DNA of 64,000 bases from Gemmatimonas sp. (GTDB lineage Bacteria > Gemmatimonadota > Gemmatimonadetes > Gemmatimonadales > Gemmatimonadaceae). Shown piece by piece: positions 36,001 through 57,000 of this stretch (position 1 is the first letter of the stretch; each line of letters opens with the position of its first letter). The position numbers were made by a program. The stretch is taken from positions 64,001-128,000 of the forward strand of contig JANNVQ010000014.1 of assembly GCA_031414535.1 (NCBI GenBank), given 5' to 3'.

Positions 36001-39000
36001 CCGAGATCGACGTGATCTCGTTCCGGTTGGTAGAGATGGCGAAGCCGGCGTCATAACCCCAGCCGCCGTTGCGCCCTTCGAGCACCAACCACGAGAGCGA
36101 GAGTTCCACACCACTGTTCTTCATCGAGCCGATGTTGGTCGTCACGAAGTTGCCGGTGGTGGTGCCGGCAGGAACCGGGACCGAGAAGATCAGGTCGTCG
36201 GTTTCCTTGTTATAGATGTCGAGCGCGCCGGTCAGGCGATCATTGAAGAACCCGAAATCGAGACCGACGTTGTTGGCCGTGGTGCGCTCCCACTTGATGT
36301 TGGGATCAACCGCGCTCGGACGAAGCGTGCTCACGAACTGGTTGCCGAACTGGTAGGTGGCCTGTGCGCCGCCCGGGGTGTAGGTGGGCACGTACAGGTA
36401 GTTGCCAAACGATTGATTACCGTTCACGCCCCACGAGTAGCGGAGCTTGAGGTCCGAGATGTTGCGCGTGGACGGGAACCAGTTCTCGTCACGAATGCGC
36501 CAGCCAGCCGCGAATGAGGGGAAGGTGCCCCACTGATTGTCGGGGCCGAAGCGCGACGAACCGTCACGACGTAAGCTGACCGTGGCGTAGTAGCGCTCAC
36601 GGAAGGTCCAGTTGGCGCGGGCGAAGAACGAGATGAGGCGGGACTCCTCAACCGACAACGACGGGCGGGTCTCGCCGGCCAGCGGAATGCCGTTCGGTCC
36701 GAGCAGGTCCGTCGACAGGTCCTCGGCGAAGAACGAGGCATAGTCACCATTCTGCTCTTCGAAGGTGTAACCGGAAGTCAGGTCGAGGCGGCTCTCGAGG
36801 CTGGCGAACTGCCTGTTGAAGTTACCGAACACTTCCAGCAAGGTATTCACCTGACGCGGCGTGTTGCGATCGAGGCGGCCAGTGCGGCCCGTCTCGATGT
36901 CACCCTGCGCCGTGCTCGGAGAGAACGACGTACGCGACGAGGTGGCGTAGTCATAACCGGAGCGCAGTGTGCCGGTGAGCCCTTCAATCTGGCGGAAGTA
37001 CCACTTGGCTTCGATGTTGCCGACGCTACGGAAGGTGCTGCCTTCGTCGGACAACAACGCCAGGTCGGACAAGGGGTTGTTCGGTCCGAGCGGATTCGTG
37101 TACTGGAAGTAGCTGCCCGCAGTGAGCGGCGCCTGAGTCGGGTCCATCGAGACCGCATTGCCGAGCGTACCGCCAGGCGAGTACAGGTCGGAGTTGCGCG
37201 TGCCCTTGAAGTTGGCGCTCAGTTCGAGACGGTCATCGAGTAGCACGTCGCGATAGCTGGCCGAACCGGAGACGCGCTGAGTGTTGGTTCCTGCCAGAAT
37301 GCCATCCTGATTGAGCAGGCCGAGCGACAGGCGGTAGCGCATGTCTTCCTTGGCACCCGAGGCGGCGAAGTTATGCTCCGCACCGCCCGCCGTGCGCGTC
37401 ACGAGATCGAGCCAATTCGTGTTCGCGCTGCCGAGGGTTCCCACGTTGGCCGGTGCATTGGCCGTCACTGCAGCGCGGAACTGATCTGCCGTCAGGAGGT
37501 CTGGACGGTTGGCGATGCTCGAAGACGAGAAACTATTGGAGTACGTGAAGGCCGGCTCCGTGGAGGAACCCGACTTCGTCGTAATGAGCACCACGCCATT
37601 CGCGCCGCGCGAGCCGTAGATGGCCGTCGCCGATGCGTCGCGGAGCACCGTCACTTCCTTAATATCGTTCGGGTTCAGGAAGTTGAGCGGGTTACGGCCG
37701 GAGGAGAGGCCGCCACCGACGTTGAGCGGCACACCGTCAATGACGAAGAGCGGCTCGTTGGAAGCATTTACAGAGGTACCGCCGCGGATGCGGATGGAGA
37801 TACCGCCGCCCGGCTCGTTGTTATCGATAACCTGAACACCCGGCACCTTCGCCGTGATGAGCTGTTCGGCGCTGACCACGCGGCCGACGTTGAACTTGTC
37901 GGGGGTGATGGCCGCCACGGTGCCGGTCGCATTGCGCACATCCTGCGTGCCGTAACCGATCACCGTCACGCCCAAAACCTGCAGCGCGGTCGTGCGGAGC
38001 CGGAAGCTGAGCGTAACCGTCGCGCCTTCGGCGACAACGACGTTTGCGGCCGAATCCGGCGCGTAGCCGAGCCGGCGCACGACCACGGTGTAAGTGCCGG
38101 CGTCCACAGGCACGGAGAAGCGACCGTCGTCGCGCGTCTGCCCGACACGACGAACCCCGGTGCCGCGGACTTCAACTTCCGCCGCGACAATCGGGGTTCC
38201 GCCTTCCGCCGCGAACACGGTACCGACGATTCGAGAAGAAGATTGTGCGAGCGCAGGTTCGCTCGCACAGAGCACTGCGATCAGCGCAAAGACGCCGTAC
38301 CGCTTCATACTTGCCACTCCGCTTTAGACTGGTGGGAAGGTGCACTCTTCCACCACCGCACGGAGATGCGCGGAGCGAGACGAGGCGCCTGTTAGAAGCT
38401 TCAGCCAAACGCACGTCCTGTCAATATGTCGTAACGAAGTCTCGCTCGTGCTGCTTCAAAACAGGACGCGCGAGTCCTATCGGGACGCCGGCCGTGCCCC
38501 GATCGCCCGACGCCGCGGAATCAGCACCCAATAGTCGAACTCCAACACGACGCTCGGGTCGTACTGCCCTTGGTCAGTCTTGTAAGGAAAGGTGGACGCA
38601 GTCCTATCCTTTGTGGCCACACTTCGTACGCGCAACGCGCCCACATCAGCGCGCCCAGGCAACTCGGCGACCTCAAGAATCTCCGACCAGGCGTAGATGG
38701 TGTCGCCGGCGAAGCTGGGGTTCACGTGCCGTCCACCATTGATGCCCACCACGGTAAAGGCGTTCCCGAGCCCACTGAAGCTCAGGGCACGGGCCAGCGA
38801 AATGAGGTGCCCGCCGTACACAATCCGGCGCCCAAACCGGCCCTCGCGCTCGACGTGCAGATTGAAATGGACCTTGGCCGTGTTTTGAAACAGACGCGCG
38901 GCGCCCATATGATCGGCGTCCTCAATGGTCATCGCGTCCACGTGATCAATGCGTTCACCCACCGCATAATCTTCCCAAGCAAACGCCGAGCCCGCGAGCT

Positions 39001-54000: not shown

Positions 54001-57000
54001 ATGGCCACGCGGTCCCCGCGCTCGACGCCAAGATTGCGCAGCGCGATGGCGCACTTGGCCGTCTCGAGCAGGAGGCGCTTACGGCTGACCGCGAAGGACA
54101 CCACCGGGCCGCCGCGGCCACCATCGAGCGACTGGTCCCATCTGTCTCCTTCGAAGAGCAGCGCGGCTTCGCTGCCGTGGCCGGCCAAAACGTGGCGATC
54201 TACTTCATTAAAGCAGGCGTTGGTGAGACCGCCGGAAAACCAGCGGTAAAACGGGGCTTCGCTGTCGTCGAAGGCGCGATGCCAAGGAGTCCAGTCGGCC
54301 GCGAGCGAGGCTTCAACTTGAGCGCCAGTGCGGGCGTCGTAGCCGGCCCAACGGGAGCTCGTATCGTCCCAAGAGATCCAGGCACCGTGCATGCCCACAT
54401 CTGGTGCAAACCAATGGATTTCGCGGCTGGCGATGGCACCGTGATAGGCGCCTGGATCGGCGAGCACTTGAGCCCGCTGCGCGTCCCATTCGGCACGGCT
54501 ACGGATTGGGTTCACCAGGGCCAACGGCGGGGTGATGTCTGGCGCCGTGCCCGCAGCGTCCGCTGGTGCGGAACGAGAATTTCCCGTGCTAGTGCGCATC
54601 TGCACTCACGACGACGTGGCGAACGCGTGACTCCGGCCTTGTGCTACCAAACCGGACACTGGGGGGTTGGGGGAAGTTATGCGCCGCGCTCCGAGTCACC
54701 AGCTACCCGAATGGGTTGGGTGGTTTGGGCACCACCGAGCCGGTTCGAGCATTCAAATGGGCTGTGGCGCAGCCACAACATTTCACCCGTTCCGTACACA
54801 TCGTCATGCGCTCCTTACTCCGCCGAGTTCTCGCGGCCGCTCTTATCAGCCCCCTCGTTCTCTCAGCTCAAGAACCCAGTCGCGCCGGCGGACCGCCTGC
54901 CGGGGTAGCTGCCCAGCGTCCTGCCGGGCCCGATTCCTCGACGCTGCAGTCGCAGGCCATCCGGGTCTTCCTCGACTGTCAGGGCCGAGCCCGTGGCTGC
55001 GACCGCGACTTTCTCGTCACGGAAATCAACTTCGTGAACTGGATGCGCGACCGCTTCGACGCCGACGTGCAAATTCTGGCCCAGGCCCTCACGAACGGCG
55101 GTGGCGGGATTGAGTACACGATCACCTTCATCGGTCGGAATCGCTTTGAGGGGATGACGGACACGCTCAAGCTGAACACGCTGCCGAACGACGCTGACGA
55201 TCGCATTCGCCGCGAGCTCGCGCGCGTCTTCAAGCTTGGGCTCACGCGCTATGTGGCCCGCTCGCCGATCGCCTCGCGTTTGCAGGTGGCCTACACCGCG
55301 CCCTTTGGTGGGCAGCGCGGTCAGGTGGCGGCATCAAATCTGCAGGACCGGTGGAACCTCTGGACCTACACCACGAACCTCAACACCTTCGTGCGCGCCG
55401 AGGAGAGGCAGCGGGTGGTAACCGGGTCGCTGGCGTTCTCGGCAAATCGCTCCACTGCCGAATGGAAGCTCAACTTCTCCATTAGCGGCAACATTGACGA
55501 GCGGAAGTTCAAGATTCCGGCGAGCACCACGCGCCCCGCGTTCACGGTCACCAACGAGCAGCGCACGTACAACCTCAACTCGCTGATGGTGCGCTCGCTC
55601 TCGGATCACTGGTCGGCCGGCCTCAAGTTGGGCGCAGGCTATTCAGACTTTCTCAATCAGGATGCGGCAATCCGGGCGCAGCCAGCCGTCGAGTACAATG
55701 TGTTCCCCTGGACGGAGCAGACGCGGCGCCAGTTTACCATTTTGTACAACATCGGCCCCAACTTCTACGACTACCAGCGCGAAACCGTGTTTGGCGAGAC
55801 CTCGGAAGTCCGCTTCTCTCAGCAGCTGACGACGTCGTACGTGGCGCGCCAGCAGTGGGGTACGCTCAACCTCTCGCTGGACTGGCTGAACTACCTGCAC
55901 GATTTCAACCGTCACGCGCTGACCTTCACGACCAACGCCGACCTGCGCTTGGGCCGCGGTTTTTCGCTCAATATCAACGGCTCGGCCGCTCGCGTGCGCG
56001 ACCAAATCTACCTGCCAGCCGCCGGCAACACCGAAGAGGAGATTCTCCTCAGCCGTCAGGCGCTTCAGACCGGCTTTCGCATCGAAACGAGAATCGGCGT
56101 GCGCTACACGTTCGGCTCGATCTACAACACTATCGTAAACCAGCGTTTCAGCTCGCTGGGCTCAAGCGGCGGTCGCTTCCAGTTCTTCTTCTAGAAGTAC
56201 CAACAGTGAAAAAGACGGTCCGCCACGATTGCTTCGTGGCGGACCGTCTTTGCATTCACAGGCTCTTGCGAGTCGCTTACTGCTTGGTCGTGGCGGTTGC
56301 GTTTGGCTTCGCTGTTCCCTCAGCGGGCGCATCTTCATCGGTCAGCTTTCCAAAGGCGCCTGGCAACTCTACGCCCGCGATGTCGCGCAGCACGTTCATC
56401 ATCGGAGGCAGGGTGCCGGCCATGCTCTGTAGAAATCCGCTTGCTCCGCCTTTCCCACCCTGGCCCGAATCCCACACCACGACCTTATCGAACTTGATGT
56501 TGGAAATAGCCTTGGCTGAAGTCTCAGCGAGTGTGTCGAGATGCTCCACCATCATGAGCTGGAACGCCTCCTTGGCGCCGCCGGCGGCCGCGACCAGCTC
56601 CTTCATCGCCTCAGCCTTGCGCGACATGATCTCGTATTGGCCCCGAGCCTCCGCCTCCAGCTTCGCGTAGATGGCACCGGCCTCGGCCTGCGCCTGAATC
56701 CGTACGCGTTCGGCGTCCGCTTCAGCCTCGACGATTATCTGAGCCTTTTGTGCCTTCGCACTCGCCTCAAGCTTTGCGCGCTGCTCCGCCTCAACACGTT
56801 CTGCATCGGCGAGCGCCGCGCGCGCCATAGCCCGGAAACCCGCTTCCTGCACCGCCGCCTCCGCTTCGCGCTTGCGTGTCTCGGCAAGCTGGTACGATTC
56901 CGCTTCTTTCACAACCAGGGTAGCGCGAGTGGCCGCAACCAAGGCCTGCGAGGCAGCTTCACCTTCAATAGCCTTGGCTTCCGCGTCGGCCACAGCCACG

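What a model noticed while it worked through the whole genome (the two positions that open the first line are those of the whole stretch)
38477..54599. Complete 3-hydroxypropionate bi-cycle in one 16-kb cluster of a phototrophic Pseudogemmatithrix, unique in its genus
Eight adjacent genes encode every enzyme specific to the 3-hydroxypropionate bi-cycle: mch, mcl, mct, smtB, smtA, meh, malonyl-CoA reductase (g00772, 1262 aa) and propionyl-CoA synthase (g00773, 1830 aa). The same genome carries a full photosynthesis gene cluster (C49:17782-117399), and this pairing is the rule: nearly every other Gemmatimonadota genome with Mcr also has pufM. The organism is a candidate Chloroflexus-style photo(mixo)autotroph. 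Within its genus only this species has the cluster, and its Mcr belongs to a lineage nearer to proteobacterial versions than to those of most Gemmatimonadota.
Evidence so far: Swiss-Prot best hits are the Chloroflexus aurantiacus enzymes at 57-78% identity. Remaining steps are present elsewhere: ACC, PCC (g02350-53), epimerase g01270, mutase g01978/g02827/g01990 + MeaB, SDH, fumarase. Mcr is full length in 1 of 55 genomes of the genus, only here. pufM (E<=1e-60) in 22 of the 23 other Gemmatimonadota genomes that hold an Mcr locus, in 2 of 2 Burkholderiales and 5 of 5 sampled Steroidobacteraceae ones, against Photo_RC in 176 of 2019 genomes of the phylum (relatives.tsv). Mct at E<=1e-100 in 9 of 10 of these Gemmatimonadota genomes sampled, but not beside Mcr: of 71 Mcr loci with up to 10 kb of flank only 3 show glyoxylate-branch genes and only 1 (L181) these plus p [...]
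(Added by a program. Inside this text positions count along the whole contig: contig position 64,001 is position 1 of the stretch shown here. "Call 12" and the like, gene names such as g00115 and contig names such as C1 are that model's own, and its searches are not shown. The text may have been shortened before it was handed on; [...] marks where a part breaks off. The agent that wrote the report below was given it as the finding of a first reader that could run no searches.)

Follow-up and report, generated by a model that had tools for sequence, protein, structure and literature searches.

The report
Eight-gene 3-hydroxypropionate bi-cycle cluster
A light-harvesting freshwater-sediment bacterium carries all eight special genes of the Chloroflexus CO2-fixing pathway side by side; the pathway proves common in its family and most likely helps it assimilate acetate and glycolate together with some CO2, rather than live on CO2 alone.

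Summary
The cluster is real and intact: pcs-mcr (minus strand), meh (plus), smtA-smtB-mct-mcl-mch (minus). Mcr catalytic residues are kept and all shared steps are present. It is unique among 55 genus genomes but not in the family: in a 400-genome sample 38 have Mcr, 33 Mct, 63 a reaction centre, 29 all three. The gene set in Gemmatimonadota is already in print (PMC9802188), and this scan noted pcs-mcr on other genomes. New here: one fused block whose halves have different nearest kin, away from the family's usual tRNA-Leu site, with the same junction in another organism. The freshwater beta/gammaproteobacterial Mcr nests among Gemmatimonadaceae copies, which suggests transfer out of this family. 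Autotrophy is doubtful: no hydrogenase, SoxY or BchE found; no isocitrate lyase or malate synthase; glycolate oxidase present. Cultured Gemmatimonas groenlandica encodes full-length Mcr yet did not grow autotrophically (PMC7844134). Best reading (0.6): light-assisted co-assimilation of acetate and glyoxylate with CO2. SQR and TsdA-like genes keep lithotrophic use open (0.12).

The parts
49107..54599 (-). pcs, trifunctional propionyl-CoA synthase (CoA ligase + enoyl-CoA hydratase + reductase), 1830 aa
   Evidence: Pfam domains in that order; 2518 bits to PDB 6eqo over residues 37-1828; 84% to the g46 copy in L030
45285..49073 (-). mcr, bifunctional malonyl-CoA reductase, 1262 aa with a low-complexity N-terminal extension of about 45 aa
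   Evidence: Full-length match to 8hi4/8hjw. T209, Y216, R219, Y222, K226 and S757, Y769, R772, Y775, K779, R811, L821, R825 align with the Roseiflexus residues named in PMC10470521; Arg1164 not checked
44405..45295 (+). meh, mesaconyl-C4-CoA hydratase (putative), 296 aa; opposite strand
   Evidence: Only solved relative is itaconyl-CoA hydratase 8khg, E 9e-62; 52-62% orthologues stand divergently beside smtA or mct in the family's glyoxylate loci
43116..44345 (-). [quoted passage not shown]
   Evidence: CoA_transf_3; named by position, as in Chloroflexus Caur_0179 (PMC3150298); 73-88% orthologues in the same position
41871..43112 (-). smtB, second subunit (putative), 413 aa
   Evidence: CoA_transf_3; 56% to smtA; no solved SmtAB among PDB hits
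40645..41868 (-). mct, mesaconyl-CoA C1-C4 transferase (2-methylfumaryl-CoA isomerase), 407 aa
   Evidence: TIGR04253 609 bits, below the 725 cut-off; 573 bits to 7xkg, 561 to 8apq
39580..40623 (-). mcl, malyl-CoA/beta-methylmalyl-CoA/citramalyl-CoA lyase, 347 aa
   Evidence: 636 bits to 6kin and 634 to 4l7z, against 197 and 183 for the malyl-CoA lyases 4l9y and 5ugr
38477..39583 (-). mch, beta-methylmalyl-CoA dehydratase (mesaconyl-C1-CoA hydratase); start overlaps the mcl stop
   Evidence: PF19315 MC_hydratase; 539 bits to 4e3e, 455 to 8hgn
54641..56194 (+). right flank: gene without a Pfam family, divergent from pcs; native to the genus but in changing neighbourhoods
   Evidence: 79-82% DNA identity in congeners; neighbours differ among the 11 congener genomes examined, none 3HP
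6060..38317 (.). left flank: glycogen genes, amylases, PTS, GH97, SusC/SusD; sugar and starch use

Best explanation
A working 3-hydroxypropionate bi-cycle used by an aerobic anoxygenic photoheterotroph to co-assimilate small organic acids with bicarbonate. Acetyl-CoA is carboxylated (ACC), reduced by Mcr (2 NADPH) and Pcs (1 NADPH) to propionyl-CoA, then carboxylated again (PCC) to succinyl-CoA: this replaces the missing glyoxylate shunt. Glyoxylate from glycolate oxidase is joined to propionyl-CoA by Mcl and passed through Mch, Mct, Meh and Mcl to pyruvate plus acetyl-CoA: this replaces the missing malate synthase and glyoxylate carboligase. SmtAB plus Mcl link malate, acetyl-CoA and glyoxylate and can close the cycle. 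In the light the reaction centre supplies proton motive force and ATP, respiration is spared, and surplus NADH from sugars or acids can be turned into NADPH by PntAB, so some CO2 is re-fixed. Shown: genes, Mcr residues, gene absences at the stated sensitivity, co-occurrence. Inferred: flux, direction, light dependence. History (inferred): the lineage regained the two halves from other Gemmatimonadaceae as a fused block.
For: Intact genes, native codon use and GC. No ICL, malate synthase, or gcl/glcB/glxK/pfo by E. coli queries, and no ccr-type motif outside Pcs, while glcDEF homologues, pntAB, accABCD, PCC, two mutase genes, MeaB, epimerase, SDH and fumarase homologues are present. ICL in 1 of 38 Mcr genomes against 7 of 31 phototrophs without Mcr. 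Hydrogenase (12 of 38 vs 8 of 31) and SoxY (1 of 38 vs 2 of 31) are not enriched. Mcr in 32 of 63 genomes with a reaction centre and 6 of 337 without. G. groenlandica encodes full-length Mcr (P0238) and did not grow photo- or chemoautotrophically on sulfide or thiosulfate with bicarbonate (PMC7844134, 130). Sugar-use genes flank the cluster. Porphyrobacter raises its 3HP genes by day (PMC10674011, 104).
Against: The two halves travel together (32 of 33 Mct genomes have Mcr) and SmtAB is kept in genera g11, g51, g53 and here, which is what a closed autotrophic cycle needs. G000 has a type III SQR above cut-off, a TsdA-like cytochrome beside a sulfite-oxidase-family enzyme, complex I, ACIII and PntAB. 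24 of the 31 phototrophs without Mcr also lack ICL, so 3HP is not needed for growth. Genomes are related, so counts overstate. The G. groenlandica test is one strain that uses only yeast extract as nitrogen source.
Confidence: 0.6

Rival explanations
1. Facultative photolithoautotrophy or strong mixotrophy: the closed bi-cycle fixes net CO2, with electrons from sulfide (SQR to quinone), thiosulfate or sulfite, lifted to NADH by light-driven reverse electron flow through complex I and to NADPH by PntAB.
For: Every step is encoded. SQR type III 558 bits, cut-off 525, beside a DsrE2-like gene; TsdA-like, sulfite-oxidase-family and cytochrome c genes adjacent on C2; persulfide-dioxygenase-like/rhodanese and TauE genes on C49; holder runs are freshwater sediment. 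TsdA-like genes lie right behind mcr in three g58 loci.
Against: No NiFe hydrogenase, SoxY (40), form I CO dehydrogenase or BchE-like radical SAM protein, so pigment synthesis looks oxygen-dependent; no pyruvate synthase; the formate dehydrogenase alpha subunit has no NuoE/F-like partners besides complex I; negative growth test in G. groenlandica; TsdA-like genes also occur away from 3HP loci. SQR distribution in the family was not tested.
Confidence: 0.12
2. Light-independent heterotrophic salvage: the genes serve acetate, propionate, 3-hydroxypropionate and glycolate assimilation, and the link with phototrophy reflects shared ancestry and life near algae.
For: Genus g58 has Mcr in 5 genomes but a reaction centre in 1; G218 (94% complete) has Mcr and Mct without one. 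22 of 54 congeners have a reaction centre without Mcr or Mct. No conserved PpsR-type site upstream of Gemmatimonadota pcs. The g46 and g58 glyoxylate loci lack smtAB.
Against: Mcr is about 28-fold more frequent in reaction-centre genomes (32 of 63 vs 6 of 337) across at least seven genera, and 22 of 25 Mcr-bearing proteobacterial genomes also have one (28). The route costs much ATP and NADPH (established biochemistry), which light would pay.
Confidence: 0.22
3. Artefact or dead cassette: mis-assembly, foreign contig, or genes in decay.
For: A single MAG; the scan noted decaying mcr in another Gemmatimonas (e1-5267161); no listed public contig spans the whole stretch.
Against: Flanks match congeners; even contig depth 11-15 across cluster and flanks in run X1, with pieces bridging smtA-meh and meh-mcr, and depth 5-6 in a second sample; the same smtA-meh-mcr-pcs junction in a 70% GC contig of another organism (L198, 118); no stops; native codon use.
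Confidence: 0.04

Closest known systems
3-hydroxypropionate bi-cycle of Chloroflexus aurantiacus and Roseiflexus
   Same: All eight specific genes; order mch-mcl-mct-smtB-smtA-meh as in Caur_0173-0180 (PMC3150298); Mcr catalytic residues; type II reaction centre and ACIII.
   Different: mcr (Caur_2614) and pcs (Caur_0613) are scattered in Chloroflexus and joined to the block here. Chloroflexus has isocitrate lyase, malate synthase and cox genes (PMC3150298) and is a shown autotroph; none of these genes was found here.
3HP gene sets in two Gemmatimonadaceae MAGs and in Burkholderiales (Garritano 2022, PMC9802188; also bioRxiv 10.64898/2026.09.02.748891)
   Same: Complete set, same glyoxylate-operon order, same family; those MAGs score 85-100 for several pigment pathways in Table S5.
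   Different: In the passages read they report no pcs-mcr joined to the operon, no family-wide count, no link to reaction centres as a pattern, and no cultured carrier; their gene-order figures were not visible.
pcs-mcr pair of aerobic anoxygenic phototrophs (Erythrobacter NAP1, Porphyrobacter, Steroidobacteraceae)
   Same: Adjacent pcs-mcr, photoheterotrophic host; Pcs 72-79% to Steroidobacteraceae-type copies.
   Different: Most lack the glyoxylate half (Mct in 7 of 25 proteobacterial Mcr genomes).
Partial bi-cycle of Kentron, Thiosymbion, Accumulibacter (10.1101/540435)
   Same: Glyoxylate half used for assimilation of organic acids.
   Different: They lack Mcr and Pcs.

Membership tests
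3-hydroxypropionate bi-cycle (gene set) | Full-length bifunctional Mcr with both catalytic sites | tested here: met
3-hydroxypropionate bi-cycle (gene set) | Trifunctional Pcs | tested here: met
3-hydroxypropionate bi-cycle (gene set) | Chloroflexus-type Mcl, Mch and Mct | tested here: met
   Mct scores 609 on TIGR04253, under the 725 cut-off, but matches solved Mct end to end
3-hydroxypropionate bi-cycle (gene set) | SmtAB and Meh with the right substrate specificity | tested here: inconclusive
   family and conserved position fit; no characterised SmtAB or Meh sequence was at hand for direct comparison
3-hydroxypropionate bi-cycle (gene set) | Shared steps: ACC, PCC, epimerase, mutase, SDH, fumarase | tested here: met
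   SdhB scores under the TIGR00384 cut-off, as in two of four relatives
Chloroflexus-type 3HP photoautotroph | Reaction centre and bacteriochlorophyll synthesis | tested here: met
   pufLMC, puhA, bchXYZ, bchNBL, bchH, bchM, acsF, bchG
Chloroflexus-type 3HP photoautotroph | Hydrogen as electron donor (NiFe hydrogenase) | tested here: not met
   PF00374 absent in a 98% complete genome
Chloroflexus-type 3HP photoautotroph | Sulfide or other sulfur donor | tested here: inconclusive
   type III SQR and TsdA-like genes present; SoxY absent; role unknown
Chloroflexus-type 3HP photoautotroph | Anaerobic pigment synthesis (BchE) | tested here: not met
   no candidate by a recalled radical-SAM motif; motif search only
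Chloroflexus-type 3HP photoautotroph | Growth on CO2 as sole carbon source | not testable with these tools
   uncultured; a cultured Mcr-bearing relative was negative

The most novel reading that the evidence does not exclude
Gemmatimonadaceae are a main reservoir of the complete 3HP bi-cycle outside Chloroflexota and the donor of pcs-mcr to freshwater Steroidobacteraceae and Burkholderiales; about half of their phototrophs run the closed cycle in the light for net CO2 fixation, this lineage with sulfide or thiosulfate electrons, from a mobile eight-gene cassette. That would make them aerobic 3HP photo-mixotrophs or autotrophs hidden among supposed photoheterotrophs.
Probability: 0.15. Interest if true: 0.85.

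Novelty: new variant of a known kind. Interest (0 to 1): 0.5.

Why it matters
Whether the 3HP bi-cycle fixes carbon outside Chloroflexota is an open question that both genome surveys leave for validation. This work makes it testable: a cultured aerobic phototroph (G. groenlandica) encodes Mcr, two closed genomes hold all eight genes, and the trait marks about half of the family's phototrophs, so even partial CO2 co-assimilation would bear on freshwater carbon budgets. The compact 16-kb block from a non-thermal habitat is a ready source of enzymes for synthetic carbon fixation, and its mosaic origin shows the pathway being assembled from two modules.

Tried and rejected
Minus-strand ORF 44342-45415 as meh: no family or structure hit; the gene is on the plus strand. 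A recalled PFOR motif hit was an aminotransferase. RuBisCO: only a form IV-like protein at C14:137873. A TGT-N12-ACA site at 54763 does not fit the genome's PpsR-type pattern and is not conserved. Promoter and terminator scan gave fewer sites than shuffles. Recent-transfer signature: none in GC or codon use. Mcr on plasmids: no match at 1e-60. No RNA holder listed. The careful Mcr tree did not finish; the quick mixture-model tree is reported. A residue check had a wrong pattern and was redone (70 of 70 near-full-length Mcr rows keep both sites; rows with under 85% cover were left out, so broken copies are not counted). Naming of distant Mcr representatives found no named Chloroflexota or Erythrobacteraceae protein; proxies were chosen by nearest solved structure. 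No fold or complex prediction was run: every protein has close solved or syntenic relatives.
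Full report
OBSERVATION. The window is G000:C14:64001-128000 of a 3.70-Mb, 98% complete genome. 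Between 38477 and 54599 lie eight stop-free genes. Read along the minus strand: pcs (49107-54599), mcr (45285-49073), then meh on the plus strand (44405-45295, overlapping the mcr stop by 11 bp), then smtA, smtB, mct, mcl, mch. Pcs has ligase, hydratase and reductase domains and matches 6eqo at 2518 bits. Mcr matches 8hi4 and 8hjw end to end; the residues that PMC10470521 (passages read) names as essential in Roseiflexus Mcr (Thr165, Tyr172, Arg175, Tyr178, Lys182; Ser731, Tyr743, Arg746, Tyr749, Lys753, Arg785, Leu795, Arg799) are all kept; Arg1164 lay in the cut part of the alignment. Mcl, Mch and Mct match the solved Chloroflexaceae-type enzymes (the organisms of these PDB entries are recalled, except the Roseiflexus Mcr). 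SmtAB and Meh are named by family and position only; the order equals Caur_0173-0180 (PMC3150298, passages).

IS IT AN ARTEFACT? Unlikely. GC and codon use are native. The right flank matches congeners at 79-82% DNA identity. Public contigs of run X1, which may be the source sample, cover cluster and flanks at depth 11-15 and bridge smtA-meh and meh-mcr; a second sample of the same study covers parts at depth 5-6; no listed piece spans the whole. Both are freshwater sediment. A 70% GC metagenome contig (L198) has the same smtA-meh-mcr-pcs junction at 65-88% identity. Unplaced proteins at 92-94% identity to Mcr and Mct exist, and one Mcr and one Mct are both recorded on a 21,616-base contig.

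REST OF THE PATHWAY. Found in G000: accA, B, C, D, PCC-type carboxyltransferase with biotin carboxylase and carrier, two mutase genes and MeaB, epimerase, SDH, fumarase homologues, PntAB and glcDEF homologues (GlcD and GlcF score under the NCBIfam cut-offs), PEP carboxylase, ACIII, complex I. Not found: isocitrate lyase, malate synthase, gcl, glcB, glxK, pyruvate:flavodoxin oxidoreductase and prpD by E. coli queries, true RuBisCO, NiFe hydrogenase, SoxY (40), form I CO dehydrogenase, BchE by a recalled motif. Possible donors that are present: a type III SQR above cut-off, a TsdA-like cytochrome beside a sulfite-oxidase-family enzyme, and a formate dehydrogenase alpha subunit without NuoE/F-like partners. 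Photosynthesis genes look complete for an aerobic phototroph but lie in two blocks on C49, a split also described for Pseudogemmatithrix spongiicola (PMC12817894, passages).

DISTRIBUTION. Genus: Mcr 1 of 55, Mct 1 of 55, reaction centre 23 of 55. Family sample of 400 other genomes: Mcr (C-terminal 671 aa) 38, Mct 33, reaction centre 63; Mcr with reaction centre 32 of 38; Mct with Mcr 32 of 33; all three 29. Genus g11 has Mcr and Mct in 13 of 14 and a reaction centre in 14 of 14; g58 has Mcr in 5 but a reaction centre in 1. Of the genomes behind the 72 Mcr loci I searched 49: reaction centre in 23 of 24 Gemmatimonadota and 22 of 25 Proteobacteria, Mct in 18 of 24 and 7 of 25. Two closed genomes (G252, G443) hold all eight genes at near full length in two separate loci. 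ICL: 1 of 38 Mcr genomes against 7 of 31 phototrophs without Mcr; hydrogenase 12 of 38 against 8 of 31; SoxY 1 of 38 against 2 of 31. Related genomes are not independent, so these are patterns, not tests.

GENE ORDER AND HISTORY. In most relatives the halves are apart. pcs-mcr stands in front of an argE-like gene in 20 of 23 Gemmatimonadota loci listed, and behind tRNA-Gly and tRNA-Leu in 10 loci that reach that far. In G000 this site is C41:41.5-47 kb, with the tRNAs inverted and no pcs-mcr. The block meh / smtA-smtB-mct-mcl-mch is conserved elsewhere, without smtAB in g46 and g58. A second fused order (meh / smtAB-mct-mcl-mch-pcs, followed by mcr in G058) occurs in G058 and in 5 of 80 metagenome loci; three Burkholderiales loci join mcr to the glyoxylate genes. 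RpoB places G000 inside its genus (99/98 with G054 and G006; 16 rows), so plain inheritance would need several losses plus a move. Mcr and Pcs group with g46 (SH-aLRT 100), while five joined glyoxylate-branch genes fall in the clade of G315, G486 and kin (g53): a mosaic. With a Chloroflexales-like protein (P0241, nearest solved 8hjw) and Chlorobi proteins as outgroups, Burkholderiales and Steroidobacteraceae Mcr are sister to G000 plus g46 and nested among Gemmatimonadaceae copies; AU tests reject one Gemmatimonadaceae clade (p 0.0014) and one clade of tRNA-site copies plus G000 (p 7e-6) (groups named after a first tree was seen). Limits: proteobacterial rows were found with query-derived words, sphingomonad Mcr is present only through an unnamed proxy that groups with g11, deep nodes are open, and replacement in place in g46 is not excluded. 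A Gemmatimonadaceae donor is therefore likely, not shown.

HOW IT MOST LIKELY WORKS. The organism has sugar, starch and glycogen genes right beside the cluster, needs oxygen for pigment synthesis as far as tested, and lacks the usual routes for acetate and glyoxylate. The bi-cycle fills both gaps and fixes bicarbonate on the way; light would pay the ATP and free NADH for PntAB (inference). Co-assimilation of glycolate, acetate and related acids is the documented second role in Chloroflexus (review PMC8307300, passages; the primary paper was not read), and Porphyrobacter raises these genes by day (PMC10674011). NCBI names a full-length Mcr, 62% identical, from the cultured Gemmatimonas groenlandica (P0238); the Mcr of closed genome G443 is at zero distance from it. 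Its description reports no photo- or chemoautotrophic growth with sulfide or thiosulfate and bicarbonate, no bchE, and use of yeast extract only as nitrogen source, and it never mentions hydroxypropionate (PMC7844134, passages). That the named strain has the glyoxylate half is inferred, not read from a named record. Odds: co-assimilation aided by light 0.6, light-independent salvage 0.22, lithoautotrophy or strong mixotrophy 0.12, artefact or decay 0.04.

WHAT IS IN PRINT. PMC9802188 (passages, supplement passages, table rows and Table S5; figures not visible) reports all 3HP genes in two Gemmatimonadaceae MAGs, with the same glyoxylate operon. bioRxiv 10.64898/2026.09.02.748891 (passages; supplements closed) finds the markers in freshwater Gemmatimonadota and Pseudomonadota and calls for validation. 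PMC10581226 (passages), a survey of over 400 Gemmatimonadota genomes, has no hit for hydroxypropionate but notes glcDEF and the rarity of the glyoxylate cycle in fresh water. Searches showed no paper on a fused eight-gene cluster, on the family-wide link to reaction centres, or on 3HP in G. groenlandica; three papers listed were seen as listings only, subscription papers are not held, and the unseen gene-order figures of PMC9802188 could bear on the cluster claim. The scan itself noted pcs-mcr in other Gemmatimonadota and Steroidobacteraceae.

VERDICT. Real, intact, a new arrangement of a known pathway in a phylum where it was already reported. The value lies in the scale, the mosaic cassette, the possible donor role and a cultured test organism. 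Interest 0.5.

Noticed in passing
L038 and L053, about 42 bp upstream of pcs; weaker in L057: Exact TGTCA-N8-TGACA palindromes of the type seen in the G000 photosynthesis genes lie upstream of pcs in two gammaproteobacterial genomes (0 of 200 shuffles reached the score); pcs-mcr may be under PpsR-type control there. 54 regions were scanned.
   Followed up: partly
G252:C1:608975-609868 (L136): A closed phototroph genome has a strong RuBisCO large-subunit match (E 9e-121), a NiFe hydrogenase-family match and all eight 3HP genes: two carbon-fixation gene sets in one cell.
   Followed up: no
L112, L113, L133 (genus g58), behind mcr: A TsdA-like diheme cytochrome gene lies directly behind mcr in a genus where 4 of 5 Mcr genomes show no reaction centre; a possible thiosulfate-linked use.
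   Followed up: partly
L092, L083 (g46); L122, L123, L126 (g58): Glyoxylate block without smtAB (meh / mct-mcl-mch); whether smtAB lies elsewhere was not searched.
   Followed up: no
G000:C14:137870-139186: Form IV RuBisCO-like protein about 19 kb from pcs; best models OiaX and type III, both under cut-off.
   Followed up: partly
window 6060-38317: Large glycogen, maltodextrin, PTS and SusCD region abutting the cluster, with a fused EIIA-HPr-EI protein (27465-30041) and large amylase fusions.
   Followed up: no
G000:C49:35000-86000: Insert that splits the photosynthesis genes: persulfide-dioxygenase-like/rhodanese, TauE, restriction-type genes, DNA methylase, Mutator transposase.
   Followed up: no
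G000:C18 (1530 bp): A second sdhA/sdhB fragment, closer to the E. coli type, on a tiny contig of higher GC; possible bin contaminant.
   Followed up: no
L014 (G064): pcs-mcr away from the tRNA site, next to homologues of two genes that lie about 8 kb from pcs in G000; this genome showed neither a reaction centre nor Mct.
   Followed up: no
P0245, P0399, P0419: Mcr homologues named from a Bdellovibrionota MAG, Ca. Thermochlorobacter and a Chlorobiales MAG.
   Followed up: no
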